DNA of 42,614 nucleotides from an uncultured Gammaproteobacteria bacterium (GCA_964428465.1 CAYRYG010000002.1:1-42614), one strand, 5' to 3'. Shown: positions 16,521-22,563, counted from the stretch's first letter. A program made the numbers and translations. The notes: generated by a model not told the origin, from the letters alone.

Positions 16521-16553
16521 AAACAAAAAATCCCCCGTCAGGATGACGGGGGG
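16521..16553 (-). terminator. intrinsic terminator of the 974-aa gene
   Basis: Minus strand reads CCCCCGTCA-tcc-TGACGGGGG then TTTTTTGTTTTT. The stem contains the last codons and the TGA stop (LPPSS*). Confidence 0.75.
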
Positions 16554-19564: not shown

Positions 19565-22563
19565 GTTTGGATGACTTCCAGGTCGCGCGGGTGCGCGTGG
19601 AAGCCCGGGTGGCTCGGGAAGTCGACGAGCAGGTGGTCGCCCCGGACGGCGGCGGCGACCACGCCTTCCTCCCCGCTCCTCGCGTTCCCCGGGAGGTACA
19701 GCGGACTGTGTTCCGCGCGCAGGCGAACCGTGTCGCCCGGACGGGGGATGGCCGCGACGAGCTCGTCGAGGCGACCGGTCCATTCCGGCTCGCTCGGGAA
19801 CGCGACGAGCGCCTCGTCCCCGATGATCTGCTTGACGGCCCCGCGCTCGTCCGGGCGGACGCTGCCCCACCCGTAGGCCGGCGTGATGCCGGGCTTGACC
19901 GAGACGAGCGCGCCGAGGTCGGACACGACCGTCCAGTCGTGCACGAGGGTGAGTTTCCGAATGCCTTCGGTGTGGTTGATCCCGACCCGGTCCCTGCGCG
20001 CCGGTTCGTGATACCGGCTACCGACGTACTTCCGCGGGTCCGTAAGGAGCTGGTGCGCCGGTCGAATCACGCCGGACGGAATCCCATAGAGAAAGACGTA
20101 GGTATCCCATCCAGTGGAGAGACTCACGATGAGCGCCACGCTTGCGGCACGTACGCTTTCCCCGCCGTTCCAGGACGTGGGGCTCGCAACCAGGACGAAA
20201 TCCCCAATCACCAGCGCCGCGCCGTCCATGCCGTAGCCGGCATGGCCACGGTTCTGAACGTTTCGCTGTTCGGCGACGAGGTCGGGAGGCACCGCGACCA
20301 TCCTGCCGTCGGCGGTCTTGTACAGCGCGCCGTCCAGCTGGAACCTCGTCCCCGACGTGACGAACGTGCGCTCGACGTACTTGCGGTACACGTTCTCGTA
20401 CGTCTCGCCGTCGATGGACAGGTCGAGCACCTTGTTGACCGTGTCGGAGTAGGTGACGCTCGCGATCTTGCCCGCGAGCGCCTTTGGCACGGACGCGGAA
20501 CCGCCGAGATAGAGCACCTGCTCGCCATCCGCATACGGCCGGTTCGCGCTGGGGCCCCCGGGGGCCGCCGCGATCGTCTCGTCGGGAAGCGGACAAAACG
20601 CGTCGGAGCCGGCCGGGGCGGCCAGGAGCACCTTCGCGGCCGCGGCGTCGAACACGACGAACGATCCGTCCGAGAACACGATCTCCGGCACGCCGCCGTT
20701 TCCGACGCACACGCAGTAGACCTCGTACGTCGTCGTCGGGTGAAACCCGACGACTTCCCTCTGGAAGCGGAAGCGCGTCCCGCGCTCGATCGTGAAGCCC
20801 GGCAGCGCGTGGGAGAGCGCGCACGGCGTCCCGGCGACGCCCAGCCACTTGCTGTCCCGAATGACGGGGACGGGCTCGTTGAGCGGTTCCGCCTCGAGCA
20901 CGACGTCGAACGGGTGCGCGTCGGTCGGAGCCGCGCGCAGACGCTTGGGCTCGATGACCGCCCCGCTCGGAAGCAGCAGGTGGGAATGGGCGTCGAGGTT
21001 GAGCCCGTTCTCCCCAAAGGATACCGCGCGGTCGCGCAGCTCCCAGGGACATGTCTTCCACGCGATCCGGACCTTTCCGTCCGCGAACAGGGGCCTTGTC
21101 CCGATCCCAACGAACGTGCACTCATACGTGACGCGCGGGCCGGGGACCGCCCGAATCTCCTCGACGCGCGTGAGCGAGCCGCCAATCATCCCCATCTCGC
21201 CGACGGACATCCGGAAGTCGTCGAACGTGAACGTCCCGTCCTCCAGCTGCGGCCGGACCAACCGGACGGACGGAAGCAGCGTTCCGCCCCCGAAGGTGAG
21301 GTACGCCCACGTCCCGTCCACGAAGACCTCGACGTCCCCGTCACCGTCCACCCGCATGTCGCGGATCTCGTAGGCGCGGCCCGTCGACAGGTTCGCGGTA
21401 TCCTCCCGGCTCGTGATGCGGAACATGAGCCCGACCGACAGCCCGAGCCGTTCGATCGGGTTCGCGGCCGCCTGGGTCGCGACGACCGGCACGGGGACGC
21501 CGGCGCCGAGAAGCTCCGGAAGGGGGATGGCGCGCTCGACGCCCTCGAGCGCCGCGTGGCGCACGCCGCCGCTGACCTCGTAGAAGAACGCGATGGCGTA
21601 TTCCTTTCCGGCCTCGAGCCCCTCCGGGACGCGCTCGGCCGGACAGGTCACCTTCGCGCCGACCTCGACGACCTCGCCGCCGTGGATCACGGCGACCGAG
21701 TCGCTCTTCAGCAGGGTGCCCGCGCGCTCGGCATCCGGGCGCCAGGCGGGCGCGCGCTGCGCGGCATCGAGCATGGCACGGTAGTCGAATTGACGGCCGT
21801 TGCCGCCGCACCGCGCGCGCCAGGCATCGATCAGTTCCCGCAGGCTCCGCGGGTAGGGGGACCAGGGAGCGCCAAGCGTCCACGAGGGCGTCCGACGGCT
21901 CCAGTATTCCCACTCCCACACGGAATTGAGCTGGGGCACGCGCCCCCGATAGTGGTTCCACCAGCTCGCCCAGTGGTCGTTGAACGCGGTGGCCCAGAAC
22001 TCCTCGATCACCCGGTCGACCCCGCGCGGCCCGTCCGAGCGACGCACCGCCGGGATGTCCGAGAAGCAGATCTTCGCGTTATCCGCGTTGATGTTCGTCG
22101 TGCAGGGCCAGAACAGCGGCTCCCGCAGGTCGTGAATCGGCTCCGGGCGGAAGAACAGGTGCGAGTCGCGCAGGCCGCCGTCCCCCAGGAACACGACGAA
22201 GACGGTGTAGGGAAACGCGAGACGGAATCGGGTGCGTGTCCGGTCGGCGGGGACCAGTCCGAACCGCCGGATGGCACCGGTGTTCGCGATGTCGGCCCAG
22301 GAGACAAATTTCCAGGTGACCGTGCGCAGCTGCGCCGGGAACTCGACCACGTAGATGTCCTCGCCAACTCCCGACTCGTGATAGACGCATCCCTCCGGGA
22401 ACATCGCCGAGCGGGTGGACGGCGGGAGCAACACGGACGCGTCCAGCGTCTTGCGTGCCAACTTGAGGCGCCGGCCGTCGGGGCCGTCCTTCACGCGGTC
22501 GAGCTCGAGCTCGGCCGCGCCGTCCGACCGGACGATGATCCGAGACTCGTCTCGAATGGCCAT
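19549..22563 (-). CDS. 1004-aa protein: E2/UBC-like N-terminal domain with HPN-Cys-like motif plus tandem small beta-barrel (SH3/MIB-HERC2-like) repeats
   Basis: GAGG SD 7 nt before the ATG, with its own promoter and terminator. The N-terminal ~170 aa carry FRLAFPYTVFVVFL, HLFFRPEPI and LFWPCTTNINADNAKICFSDIP, which resemble the E2 pattern FP..YP...v.F...i.HPNI...G.ICLDIL. The C-terminal two modules are GALVSVKPGITPAYGWGSV...LVAFPSEPEW and GDTVRLRA...LLVDFPSHPGFHAHP. Confidence in the CDS is high. Domain calls are by eye only. Confidence 0.7.
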   Translation of the reverse strand: MAIRDESRIIVRSDGAAELELDRVKDGPDGRRLKLARKTLDASVLLPPSTRSAMFPEGCVYHESGVGEDIYVVEFPAQLRTVTWKFVSWADIANTGAIRRFGLVPADRTRTRFRLAFPYTVFVVFLGDGGLRDSHLFFRPEPIHDLREPLFWPCTTNINADNAKICFSDIPAVRRSDGPRGVDRVIEEFWATAFNDHWASWWNHYRGRVPQLNSVWEWEYWSRRTPSWTLGAPWSPYPRSLRELIDAWRARCGGNGRQFDYRAMLDAAQRAPAWRPDAERAGTLLKSDSVAVIHGGEVVEVGAKVTCPAERVPEGLEAGKEYAIAFFYEVSGGVRHAALEGVERAIPLPELLGAGVPVPVVATQAAANPIERLGLSVGLMFRITSREDTANLSTGRAYEIRDMRVDGDGDVEVFVDGTWAYLTFGGGTLLPSVRLVRPQLEDGTFTFDDFRMSVGEMGMIGGSLTRVEEIRAVPGPRVTYECTFVGIGTRPLFADGKVRIAWKTCPWELRDRAVSFGENGLNLDAHSHLLLPSGAVIEPKRLRAAPTDAHPFDVVLEAEPLNEPVPVIRDSKWLGVAGTPCALSHALPGFTIERGTRFRFQREVVGFHPTTTYEVYCVCVGNGGVPEIVFSDGSFVVFDAAAAKVLLAAPAGSDAFCPLPDETIAAAPGGPSANRPYADGEQVLYLGGSASVPKALAGKIASVTYSDTVNKVLDLSIDGETYENVYRKYVERTFVTSGTRFQLDGALYKTADGRMVAVPPDLVAEQRNVQNRGHAGYGMDGAALVIGDFVLVASPTSWNGGESVRAASVALIVSLSTGWDTYVFLYGIPSGVIRPAHQLLTDPRKYVGSRYHEPARRDRVGINHTEGIRKLTLVHDWTVVSDLGALVSVKPGITPAYGWGSVRPDERGAVKQIIGDEALVAFPSEPEWTGRLDELVAAIPRPGDTVRLRAEHSPLYLPGNARSGEEGVVAAAVRGDHLLVDFPSHPGFHAHPRDLEVIQTPPSA

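What the first reader, a model, noticed from the sequence alone, without database searches (positions are those of the whole stretch)
16538..21840. About 750-aa arrays of small beta-barrel repeats, ending in two MIB/HERC2- or SH3-like modules, fused to the E2-like domains
SEEN. After the N-domain, both proteins consist of ~60-80-aa segments with a recurring pattern: a hydrophobic strand, then G-x-x-V/L, a turn, an aromatic residue, then G-x-V and a further strand.
- In the 974-aa protein: LKVGTYIRT...LRVSRVW, LRRGMRLKA...GTVLEIDAV...ATIEFADGW, VRVGDVVRA...GAVGIVTGF.
- The last two modules are the best conserved: GTWVSVREGVVPTYGWGKVTPTDRGRVLQVLKDEALVAFPEDPEW and GDRVRLRADIVP...EGTVVGEKGEDFLVVDFPSHPGWHAHPDDL. 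Their equivalents lie at 19549-19925 in the paralogue.

ESTABLISHED. MIB/HERC2 domains (G.rV.rG.DW.WG.qdgG....G.V......v.V.W) are substrate- or partner-binding barrels of eukaryotic E3 ligases. SH3/Tudor-like barrels are common binding modules.

INFERENCE. The repeats may supply E3-like target recognition in cis to the E2-like head. That would make these proteins combined E2/E3 scaffolds.
Basis: partly seen in the sequence, partly recalled or inferred. Interest (0 to 1): 0.6.

Follow-up and report, generated by a model that had tools for sequence, protein, structure and literature searches.

The report
E2-like enzymes with SH3-barrel arrays
Two neighbouring giant proteins of an uncultured Uhrbacteria-like bacterium each carry a ubiquitin-E2-like head followed by nine small SH3-like barrels, the last two of a type otherwise named only in eukaryotic ubiquitin ligases, so they may be bacterial 'E2 plus built-in E3' enzymes.

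Summary

**Structure.** Behind an N-terminal domain related to Pfam Prok-E2_D, each protein (974 aa and 1004 aa) carries about 730-740 aa. This stretch is an all-beta string of nine 60-100-aa barrels.
- Profile-profile comparison shows real internal repeats.
  - M1-M5 and M7 form one new family (probability 58-93% for the best-linked pairs, scores 26-38, against a control maximum of 17).
  - M8 and M9 are a tandem pair (98.5%).
- AlphaFold models (pLDDT 78 and 82) match arrays of small barrels: the Spt5 KOW domains, HERC2, the Mind bomb REP domain, KIN17 and, weakly, UBE2O.

**The last two modules.** M8 and M9 belong to Pfam SH3_15, the family of the Mind bomb REP domain, the KEG repeats and the HERC2 NCOA4-binding domain. 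They do not match MIB_HERC2 (PF06701).
- Pfam score 24.8 bits against a cut-off of 24.
- HERC2 in the PDB at E = 2.7e-10.
- Every named sequence relative outside this family is eukaryotic.

**Gene pairs.** In related loci the genes come in pairs. The upstream copy keeps the E2 cysteine and always has the SH3_15 pair. The downstream copy lacks the cysteine and has 0, 1 or 2 such modules.

**Likely function (inferred, about 45%).** The arrays recruit targets or partners in cis for a Bil-like Ubl/E1/JAB cassette in which no E3-type domain was detected. This is analogous to UBE2O.

The scan has not noted this on other DNA.

The parts
18770..19462 (-). P0001 residues 1-231: E2-like head of the Prok-E2_D type, without the active-site cysteine. 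It is context for the array.
   Evidence: 21 of 43 relatives of this domain hit Pfam Prok-E2_D, best E = 1.3e-6. The cysteine is absent at the column where the upstream paralogues have ...G..C.G.
17663..18769 (-). P0001 modules M1-M5 (residues 232-300, 301-385, 386-455, 456-535, 536-600): five mutually related small beta-barrels of a family-specific type.
   Evidence: Module HMMs. hhalign gives 58-93% among most pairs of M1-M5, but M3-M4 and M2-M4 are not linked directly. Scores are 26-38 against a control maximum of 17. The DSSP pattern recurs with seven strands per unit at pLDDT 80-93. Foldseek matches Spt5 KOW arrays at E = 5e-6, probability 0.99-1.0.
17363..17662 (-). P0001 module M6 (residues 601-700): a mixed beta/helix module that is less confident and more variable. 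It is missing in some relatives.
   Evidence: Module HMM hit at residues 629-700. pLDDT dips to 52-60 and residues 627-633 are below 50. It has the lowest conservation, 17-25%. It is absent in P0006, in L013:4714-7329 and in L069. It has no significant link to other modules.
17231..17362 (-). P0001 residues 701-744: a low-confidence linker with a short helix.
   Evidence: pLDDT is about 39-40 and residues 700-718 are below 50.
16922..17230 (-). P0001 module M7 (residues 745-847): a barrel starting at VRVGDVVRA, with an inserted loop and helices. It is distantly related to M1.
   Evidence: Module HMM hit at residues 749-828. hhalign M1-M7 gives 63%, score 27.5. Present in every family member tested. 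It is duplicated in P0009.
16742..16921 (-). P0001 module M8 (residues 848-907): first SH3_15-type barrel.
   Evidence: hhalign M8-M9 gives 98.5%. The A6 profile matches the HERC2 structure 9l8y at E = 2.7e-10, aligned over this module. The bacterial M8 modules form a clade with support 96/86.
16541..16741 (-). P0001 module M9 (residues 908-974): second SH3_15-type barrel, ending in VVDFPSHPGWHAHP.
   Evidence: Pfam SH3_15, best stretch at residues 65-118 of the 123-aa C-terminal piece, 24.8 bits against a cut-off of 24. Single-module hit at E = 0.0036. The A2 profile matches HERC2 at E = 8e-5. Foldseek finds HERC2 and the Mib1 REP domain at probability 1.0.
21727..22563 (-). P0002 residues 1-279: E2-like head that keeps the candidate active-site cysteine (Cys166 in ...NAKICFSD). 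It is context for the array.
   Evidence: Alignment column with a conserved ...G..C.G in all upstream paralogues. Prok-E2_D hits among relatives.
20635..21726 (-). P0002 modules M1-M5 (HMM hits at residues 283-361, 363-442, 443-506, 507-578, 580-643).
   Evidence: Module HMM hits at E = 1e-21 to 1e-31. Colinear with P0001.
19942..20634 (-). P0002 modules M6 (HMM hit at 671-719) and M7 (774-854), with their linkers.
   Evidence: Module HMM hits. This is the region least alike between the paralogues, 18-20% identity.
19552..19941 (-). P0002 modules M8-M9 (residues 875-937 and 938-1004): the tandem SH3_15 pair.
   Evidence: The A6 profile matches 19564-19941 on the minus strand at E = 8.5e-53. 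Module HMMs. 52% identity to M8-M9 of P0001.

Best explanation
**Shown: the anatomy.** Each of the two proteins has an E2-like head related to Pfam Prok-E2_D, followed by a chain of nine small SH3-like beta-barrels.
- Six barrels (M1-M5 and M7) belong to one previously undescribed repeat family.
- M6 is a divergent insert.
- M8-M9 are a tandem pair of SH3_15 domains. This family includes the Mind bomb REP domain, the KEG 'HERC2-like repeats' and the substrate-binding INBD barrel of HERC2.
- The proteins look cytoplasmic and are neutral to acidic.
- They sit in a cassette of a 299-aa protein, a RuvB-like ATPase, a JAB peptidase, a ThiF E1 and a Ubl. No gene in it matches a known E3-type domain.

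**Inferred: the mechanism.** The barrel chain acts as a built-in adaptor.
- It holds a target protein or complex next to the E2 head.
- The upstream paralogue, which keeps the cysteine, can then pass the E1-activated Ubl directly to the target, as the eukaryotic E2/E3 hybrid UBE2O does with its five SH3-like domains.
- The conserved modules (M2, M4, M8, M9) probably bind invariant partners, such as cassette proteins or a conserved feature of the target.
- The variable modules (M1, M6, M7) would tune specificity.
- The downstream paralogue, which lacks the cysteine, would serve as a UEV-like non-catalytic partner or second adaptor.
For: **Anatomy**
- Internal repeats are significant.
- The AF2 models are all-beta and periodic, with pLDDT 78 and 82.
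- Foldseek's best matches are chains of small barrels: Spt5 KOW1-7 at E = 2e-6, HERC2, Mib1 MZM-REP and REP, the KIN17 tandem SH3-like domain, Xrn1 and TraI. UBE2O also appears (7yw1_B at probability 0.44, 7un6_A at 0.23).
- SH3_15 membership rests.
- The head is related to Prok-E2_D.

**Context**
- ThiF, a weak Prok-JAB hit and a RuvB-like protein lie in the same operon.
- The same gene order occurs in L001-L004 and in L005, whose flanking genes differ.

**Link to catalysis**
- In 8 of 8 upstream, cysteine-bearing paralogues the SH3_15 pair is present.
- In the downstream copies lacking the cysteine the number is 0, 1 or 2.

**Published analogies**
- SH3_15 domains are substrate-recognition domains of E3 ligases (PMC11701565).
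- The HERC2 INBD barrel binds the substrate NCOA4 (PMC12318192).
- UBE2O recruits substrates through five SH3-like domains placed next to its UBC domain (PMC12818219).
- BilABCD-type systems have no E3, and how they pick targets is open (10.1101/2023.09.26.559546).

**Other**
- Net charge is neutral or negative in most modules, pI is 5.6-6.5 in 15 of the 17 aligned proteins (7.0 and 8.6 in the other two), and there is no signal peptide or transmembrane segment.
Against: - There is no functional evidence at all. Conjugation, targets and even E2 activity of the head are untested.
- The SH3_15 pair and M2/M4 are the most conserved modules, and they are equally conserved between the paralogues. 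This fits binding of a constant partner at least as well as it fits target selection.
- The strongest structural matches are the Spt5 KOW arrays, which bind RNA polymerase and nucleic acid. The cassette also carries DNA-linked parts: a RuvB-like motor and a Ubl with a Rho_N/HeH-like head.
- The UBE2O matches are weak (probability 0.23-0.44), and the domain order is reversed (head first here).
- pTM of 0.44-0.46 means no cavity or arch facing the head is shown.
- My fold searches did not return an E2 for the head on its own. Its E2 nature rests on sub-threshold-to-moderate Prok-E2_D hits in relatives.
Confidence: 0.45

Rival explanations
1. **Assembly scaffold.** The barrels do not choose targets. 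They hold the machine together by binding the Ubl, the E1, the JAB peptidase or the RuvB-like ATPase. They may also pair the catalytic and non-catalytic paralogues into a heterodimer resembling an E2-UEV pair.
For: - M2, M4, M8 and M9 are as conserved between the paralogue classes (32-36%) as within them.
- In this lineage the M8 modules of both paralogues cluster together (support 99/93). This indicates copying between the two genes and a shared ligand.
- The genes always occur as a tandem pair, one with and one without the cysteine.
- UBE2O also uses an SH3 domain to bind ubiquitin (PMC12818219).
Against: - About 740 aa and nine modules is a large investment for internal contacts.
- Short stand-alone heads of about 250-300 aa work with the same kind of neighbours in other Patescibacteria, for example L008 with JAB and ThiF.
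- Module number varies widely: 0-2 SH3_15 units in the non-catalytic copies and about 10 in P0009. That is unusual for a fixed-stoichiometry interface.
Confidence: 0.25
2. **Nucleic-acid or polymerase-binding array.** Like the KOW domains of Spt5 or NusG, or like Tudor and SH3-like barrels of DNA enzymes, the chain would dock the enzyme onto DNA, RNA or a DNA-bound machine. The Ubl system would then act on replication, repair or phage DNA complexes.
For: - The top Foldseek matches for both models are Spt5 KOW arrays (E = 2e-6 to 5e-6, probability 0.99-1.0). Xrn1, the TraI relaxase and Agenet/SAWADEE barrels also appear.
- The cassette carries a RuvB-like ATPase and a Ubl with a weak Rho_N-like head.
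Against: - Modules are neutral to acidic and whole proteins have pI 5.6-6.5, with no basic patch visible at sequence level.
- There are no KOW, Tudor or S1 Pfam hits above noise.
- Foldseek similarity among small barrels reflects the shared SH3-like fold, not function.
- The only sequence-level homology is to protein-binding E3 modules.
Confidence: 0.17
3. **Secreted or cell-wall-binding SH3b array.** The barrels would anchor the protein to peptidoglycan or to a host-cell surface.
For: SH3-like folds are common in cell-wall-binding proteins, and Patescibacteria live attached to host cells. This is general knowledge, not a tool result.
Against: - There is no signal peptide or hydrophobic segment. 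At most 13-14 hydrophobic residues fall in any 19-aa window, and the N-terminus is the E2-like head.
- There are no SH3b-type Pfam hits (SH3_3 and similar) on these proteins.
- The genes are embedded in a cytoplasmic E1/Ubl/JAB/AAA+ operon.
Confidence: 0.02

Closest known systems
UBE2O, the eukaryotic E2/E3 hybrid enzyme (PDB 7yw1, 7un6; PMC12818219)
   Same: - One polypeptide combines an E2-fold catalytic domain with a chain of SH3-like barrels, five in UBE2O.
- In UBE2O these barrels recruit substrates without a separate E3.
- Foldseek finds UBE2O among the matches for both models.
   Different: - The match is weak (probability 0.23-0.44) and there is no sequence homology.
- The head here is of the Prok-E2_D type, not a canonical UBC.
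- The order is reversed: head at the N-terminus and nine barrels behind it.
- The modifier is a bacterial Ubl.
- There is a paired paralogue without the cysteine.
- Function is untested.
SH3_15 / Mind bomb REP / KEG 'HERC2-like repeats' / HERC2 INBD (Pfam PF18346; PDB 4tse, 4xi7, 9l8y; PMC11701565, PMC12318192)
   Same: - M8 and M9 are sequence homologues.
- They occur as a tandem pair with the same spacing of about 62 aa as in the eukaryotic repeats.
- They have the same fold.
- In eukaryotes these barrels bind E3 substrates.
   Different: - Here the host protein is a bacterial E2-like enzyme rather than a RING or HECT E3.
- Every named relative outside this family is eukaryotic.
- The bacterial M8 and M9 form their own clades, so there is no sign of recent transfer.
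BilABCD, operon type 6d of Iyer, Burroughs and Aravind 2006 (PMC1779556; 10.1101/2023.09.26.559546; 10.1101/2023.09.04.556158)
   Same: - The gene set matches: Ubl, ThiF-type E1, JAB peptidase and a Prok-E2-type E2.
- There is no E3 gene.
   Different: - The BilB sequence printed in the preprint is about 200 aa with no barrels. Here the E2 is about 1000 aa, duplicated into a copy with and a copy without the cysteine.
- The cassette adds a RuvB-like ATPase and a 299-aa protein.
- There are no PADLOC hits.
- A defence role is not shown.
Spt5/NusG KOW arrays (for example PDB 5oik chain Z, 5ohq)
   Same: - These are the best overall structural matches: a chain of small SH3-like barrels joined by linkers.
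   Different: - There is no sequence similarity and no KOW motif hit.
- There is no NGN domain.
- Composition is acidic to neutral rather than that of a nucleic-acid or polymerase adaptor.

Membership tests
Pfam SH3_15 (PF18346, Mind bomb SH3 repeat domain), for modules M8-M9 | Score against the family HMM at or above the curated gathering cut-off of 24 bits. | tested here: met
   - The C-terminal 123 aa of P0001 score 24.8 bits, E = 2.7e-5, which is barely above the cut-off.
- 6 of 9 family members match at E <= 1.
- Whole proteins or single modules score only 14.5-18 bits.
Pfam SH3_15 (PF18346), for modules M8-M9 | Reciprocal profile homology to established members. | tested here: met
   - The family profile (A2, positions about 620-745) hits more than 100 proteins.
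- Those tested score SH3_15 at up to E = 7e-97 and carry RING, TRIM_CC or calpain domains.
- Sources name them KEG-like, 'Mind bomb SH3 repeat domain-containing' or Herc2.
- The HERC2 structure 9l8y matches at E = 2.7e-10.
Pfam SH3_15 (PF18346), for modules M8-M9 | Five-stranded SH3-like barrel fold, in tandem. | tested here: met
   - AF2 pLDDT is 85-94 across residues 850-970.
- Foldseek finds HERC2 9l93/9l8y and the Mib1 REP domain 4tse at probability 1.0.
   No PF06701 hit was listed for whole proteins or single modules, even at E <= 10. The only structural similarity comes through the shared SH3-like fold, as with 4xi7.
SH3-like small beta-barrel fold (SH3/KOW/Tudor class), for modules M1-M5 and M7 | Compact barrel of about 5 strands per unit of 60-85 aa, with structural matches to known small barrels. 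| tested here: met
   - The DSSP pattern is periodic at pLDDT 80-93.
- Foldseek on residues 232-847 alone returns Spt5 KOW arrays (E = 5e-6), UBE2O, Xrn1, AGDP3 Agenet domains, TraI and HERC2.
- I could not inspect coordinates, so the topology of each unit was not checked by eye.
Prok-E2_D (PF14460), for the N-terminal head | Match to the family HMM, plus a conserved catalytic cysteine after the beta-meander. | tested here: inconclusive
   - 21 of 43 relatives of the head hit Prok-E2_D, best E = 1.3e-6.
- The window's own two heads do not hit it.
- The cysteine is present in P0002 and all upstream paralogues and absent in P0001 and all downstream ones.
- No E2 structure was recovered by sequence.
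E2/E3 hybrid enzymes (UBE2O and BIRC6 class) | E3-independent transfer of the modifier to substrates recruited by non-catalytic domains of the same polypeptide. | not testable with these tools
   Only the architecture is comparable (PMC12818219). Activity needs biochemistry.
BilABCD / type 6d Ubl-conjugation operon | Co-located Ubl, E1 (ThiF), JAB deubiquitinase and E2. | tested here: met
   - ThiF at E = 2e-17.
- Prok-JAB only weakly, at E = 0.04 and 0.008.
- A small ORF at 22687-23121 lies between the E1 and the E2 genes. Its Ubl fold was not tested by me.
- E2-like heads.
- The same order holds in L001-L005.
BilABCD / type 6d Ubl-conjugation operon | Anti-phage defence function. | not tested
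   No PADLOC hit for either protein. There are no functional data.

The most novel reading that the evidence does not exclude
These would be the first bacterial E2/E3 hybrid enzymes.
- A Prok-E2-type head would select its targets through a built-in chain of SH3-like barrels.
- The terminal SH3_15 pair would be the prokaryotic counterpart of the substrate-binding barrels of Mind bomb, KEG and HERC2, either as their ancestor or through an ancient exchange.
- That would mean one class of eukaryotic E3 substrate-recognition module was already wired to Ubl conjugation in Patescibacteria.
Probability: 0.25. Interest if true: 0.8.

Novelty: new variant of a known kind. Interest (0 to 1): 0.62.

Why it matters
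- **An open question becomes testable.** Bacterial Ubl-conjugation cassettes of the Bil type have an E1, an E2 and a deubiquitinase but no E3, and how they choose targets is unknown. Here the E2 carries about 740 aa of binding modules. This offers a concrete route: delete or swap modules and follow the conjugates.
- **An evolutionary link.** The SH3_15 barrel is so far described only in eukaryotic E3 ligases (Mind bomb, KEG, HERC2, finTRIMs). Finding it in a bacterial conjugation enzyme bears on the prokaryotic roots of the ubiquitin system.
- **A new repeat family.** M1-M5 and M7 define an undescribed repeat family of small barrels.
- **A familiar pairing in bacteria.** The conserved pair of one copy with and one without the cysteine recalls E2-UEV pairs.

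Tried and rejected
**Searches that gave little or nothing**
- Word-indexed homologue searches found only one relative for P0001, only the query itself for P0002 and nothing with a 25-sequence alignment. 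The exhaustive HMMER search with the array profile was what opened the family.
- Pfam on whole proteins gave only sub-threshold SH3_15 hits. PADLOC gave nothing.
- PDB sequence search with the M1-M7 profile gave nothing. The head profile also gave nothing meaningful.
- The Pfam SH3_15 model run six-frame on the window's own genome found no match at E <= 1. The family's own profile was needed.
- The search for related loci with the 25-sequence alignment failed because no stretch was conserved enough. An 8-sequence alignment worked.
- The viral fold library gave only uncharacterised phage proteins with similar barrel chains, which was not informative.

**Ideas considered and rejected**
- MIB_HERC2 (PF06701) membership: no hit.
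- SH3b cell-wall binding with secretion: no signal peptide and no SH3b hits.
- A single large non-repetitive domain: contradicted by the models and by module-number variation.
- Recent transfer of SH3_15 from a eukaryote: the bacterial M8 and M9 each form an old clade across genomes ranging from low-GC ('_46_') to about 68% GC. However, the tree has only 62 columns and cannot give a direction.

**Limits**
- I could not inspect model coordinates or PAE, so packing between modules and any substrate cavity remain unknown.

Full report
**Where the finding lies.** The interval 16538-21840 covers all of a 974-aa ORF (P0001, 16538-19462, minus strand) and residues from about 241 to the end of a 1004-aa ORF (P0002, 19549-22563, minus strand).
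- Both have the codon-position GC pattern of real genes in this 65-70% GC window: GC3 of 0.86 and 0.89 and GC2 of 0.50.
- They are colinear paralogues, 27% identical from end to end, E = 5e-81.

**Operon context.** Upstream on the same strand lie, in order, a 299-aa protein without Pfam hits, a RuvB-like AAA+ protein, a weakly Prok-JAB-like protein, a ThiF-family E1 and a small 144-aa protein. A holA gene lies downstream.
- The closest relative is from Candidatus Uhrbacteria RIFOXYB2_FULL_57_15 (P0003, 44% identity). Its contigs carry the same gene order, including both giant genes.
- A more distant Uhrbacteria genome (L005) has the same cassette with different flanking genes. holA is therefore a neighbour, not a part of the cassette.

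**Is the array real and repetitive?** Yes.
- *Single sequences.* Self-alignment already puts the last two modules (P0001 853-905 against 912-964, score 59) and one internal pair (score 57) above the maximum of 20 shuffles, which was 44.
- *Family alignment.* I collected tandem gene pairs from metagenome contigs, extracted the full-length ORFs, and built a 17-sequence alignment (A5). From it I made HMMs for nine segments:
  - M1 232-300, M2 301-385, M3 386-455
  - M4 456-535, M5 536-600, M6 625-700
  - M7 745-830, M8 848-905, M9 906-968
- *Profile against profile.* hhalign gives M8-M9 98.5% (score 71). It gives M1-M2 93%, M2-M3 89%, M1-M3 88%, M2-M5 75%, M3-M5 70%, M4-M5 66%, M1-M5 64%, M1-M7 63% and M1-M4 58%. 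These alignments cover 39-63 columns with scores of 26-38. The best score with one profile reversed is 17.1. M6 has no significant link to the others.
- *Separable units.* P0008 (1290 aa) inserts three extra M3/M4-like units. P0009 (1779 aa) has a second M7 and about ten SH3_15-type units. P0006 (701 aa) lacks M5, M6, M8 and M9.

**Structure.**
- AlphaFold2 with the 17-sequence alignment gives mean pLDDT 77.6 for P0001. Residues 232-847 alone give 82.3.
- Behind the head, the model is almost entirely beta. A unit of seven short strands recurs at a period of about 70-80 residues. Low confidence is confined to linkers (residues 627-633 and 700-718).
- pTM of 0.44-0.46 means the relative arrangement of modules is not defined.
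- Foldseek against the PDB returns chains of small barrels.
  - Spt5 with its KOW domains: E = 2e-6 to 5e-6, probability 0.99-1.0, about 380-700 aligned columns.
  - HERC2 (9l93, 9l8y; probability 1.0), Mind bomb 1 MZM-REP (4xi7) and REP (4tse; probability 1.0).
  - The KIN17 tandem SH3-like domain, Xrn1, TraI and Agenet/SAWADEE barrels.
  - More weakly, the E2/E3 hybrid UBE2O (7yw1_B at probability 0.44, 7un6_A at 0.23).
- Low TM-scores are expected when beads align one by one but the chain bends differently.
- The viral library added only uncharacterised phage proteins.

**What the last two modules are.**
- Pfam gives only SH3_15 (PF18346, 'Mind bomb SH3 repeat domain'). Whole proteins and single modules fall below threshold at 14.5-18 bits.
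- The C-terminal 123 aa of P0001 score 24.8 bits against a cut-off of 24. Six of nine family members match.
- A profile of M8-M9 (A6) finds the crystal structure of HERC2 2540-2700 (9l8y) at E = 2.7e-10, aligned to chain residues 100-163. According to PMC12318192 this is the INBD, a five-stranded barrel that binds the substrate NCOA4.
- The exhaustive HMMER search with the array profile found 265 proteins at E <= 1e-3. More than 100 of them match only profile positions of about 620-745, often many times per protein.
- Those I scanned are strong SH3_15 proteins (down to E = 7e-97) with RING, TRIM coiled-coil, calpain, or kinase plus ZZ domains.
- All that carry names are eukaryotic: fish KEG-like E3s, Cafeteria 'Mind bomb SH3 repeat domain-containing protein', dinoflagellate Herc2 and euglenozoan transcripts.
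- PMC11701565 describes SH3_15 as a substrate-recognition barrel of E3 ligases (Mib1 REP, KEG, ftr97).

**The head.** Neither window protein hits a Pfam E2 family. However, 21 of 43 relatives of the head hit Prok-E2_D (best E = 1.3e-6) and one hits UQ_con.
- At the loop after the beta-meander, every upstream paralogue has a conserved '..TN....G..C.G' with a cysteine (Cys166 in P0002).
- Every downstream paralogue, including P0001, lacks it.
- All eight upstream, cysteine-bearing proteins in the alignment have the SH3_15 pair. The downstream ones have two (P0001, P0003), one (L013 and L017 second genes) or none.

**Conservation.**
- Between the window's paralogues, M8 and M9 are 52% identical. 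That is nearly as much as between orthologues (37-59%). M1, M5, M6 and M7 are 18-21% identical.
- Across the family, M2, M4, M8 and M9 are the most conserved, and equally so within and between paralogue classes. M1, M6 and M7 are the least conserved.
- A tree of single SH3_15 modules has only 62 columns and weak resolution. It places bacterial M8 in one clade (support 96/86) and bacterial M9 in another (95/85). Within the lineage of this genome, the M8 modules of both paralogues cluster together (99/93). This suggests the pair was copied between the two genes. The tree gives no direction of transfer between bacteria and eukaryotes.

**Distribution.**
- The M8-M9 profile found no match in 400 other sampled Patescibacteria genomes.
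- The whole family is present in 5 of 60 nearest relatives, all in the same family-level group.
- Short stand-alone heads of about 250-460 aa occur in Saccharibacteria and Woesebacteria next to JAB and ThiF genes.
- A second clade of ~860-aa proteins has the head plus a different long extension, with only a weak resemblance to M2.
- The scan's earlier notes on this locus concern the same genome only. Nothing similar was noted on other DNA.

**How it most likely works.**
- *Shown:* a cytoplasmic, neutral-to-acidic protein (pI 5.6-6.5 in 15 of the 17 aligned proteins, no signal peptide or transmembrane segment). It has an E2-like head and nine SH3-like barrels, the last two homologous to E3 substrate-binding barrels. 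It sits in a Ubl/E1/JAB cassette in which no E3-type domain was detected.
- *Inferred:* the chain is an adaptor acting in cis. It would bring a target to the head so that the cysteine-bearing paralogue can transfer the Ubl directly. UBE2O does this with five SH3-like domains next to its UBC domain (PMC12818219). For Bil systems the lack of an E3 and the unknown basis of target choice are stated in 10.1101/2023.09.26.559546.
- I put this at about 45%.
- The conservation pattern fits a scaffold role for M2, M4, M8 and M9 about as well (about 25%).
- The Spt5-like fold matches and the DNA-linked neighbours keep a nucleic-acid or polymerase-docking role alive (about 17%), although the acidic composition argues against it.
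- A secreted SH3b reading is essentially excluded.

**Novelty.** I found no paper that links Uhrbacteria with ubiquitin, or bacterial E2s with SH3-like arrays. Iyer et al. 2006 do not mention such fusions. I rate this a new variant of a known kind: a Bil/6d-type conjugation system whose E2 resembles a UBE2O-like hybrid. It includes a new barrel repeat family and, as far as the named sequences show, the first bacterial home of SH3_15.

Noticed in passing
window 16538-22563; L005, L012, L013, L015, L017 gene pairs: The giant genes always come as a tandem pair. The upstream copy keeps a conserved cysteine after the beta-meander (Cys166 of P0002). The downstream copy lacks it in every pair examined, which resembles an E2 plus UEV arrangement.
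   Followed up: partly
window 19334-19336 (Cys43 of P0001) and the equivalent position in P0002: A second cysteine at the start of the head's beta-meander (LP.GC motif) is nearly invariant in both paralogue classes, including the copies that lack the loop cysteine. Its role is unknown.
   Followed up: no
window 16541-16921 and 19552-19941: In this lineage the M8 modules of the two paralogues are each other's closest relatives (support 99/93). The M8-M9 pair is 52% identical between paralogues, against 18-34% for the other modules. This suggests the SH3_15 pair was copied between the two genes. Single M9-type modules in other downstream paralogues also group with their neighbour's M9.
   Followed up: partly
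P0008 (1290 aa) and P0009 (1779 aa), metagenome proteins: These family members have expanded arrays. P0008 has three extra M3/M4-like units of about 75-80 aa in tandem. P0009 has a second M7 and about ten SH3_15-type units at its C-terminus.
   Followed up: partly
L020-L062, for example L027:1210-3843: A second, larger clade of ~855-885-aa proteins has the same E2-like head at about residues 50-285 and a different ~580-aa extension. It shows only a weak profile resemblance to M2 (probability 53%). These proteins come from low-GC metagenome contigs, some over 100 kb.
   Followed up: partly
window 16562-16597 (residues 956-967) and family alignment A6: The end of M9 carries a histidine-rich, strongly conserved motif, VDFPSHPGWHAHP. 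It reads VDFP.H.GW in the wider family and IVDFPQQSHW in HERC2. The extra histidines in this lineage could bind a metal or a partner. This was not tested.
   Followed up: no
window 15505-16482 compared with L005:13688-16381: holA (DNA polymerase III delta) follows the cassette in this genome and in L001-L004. In L005 a methyltransferase and nusA follow instead. The cassette therefore appears to be an insertable unit with variable flanks.
   Followed up: partly
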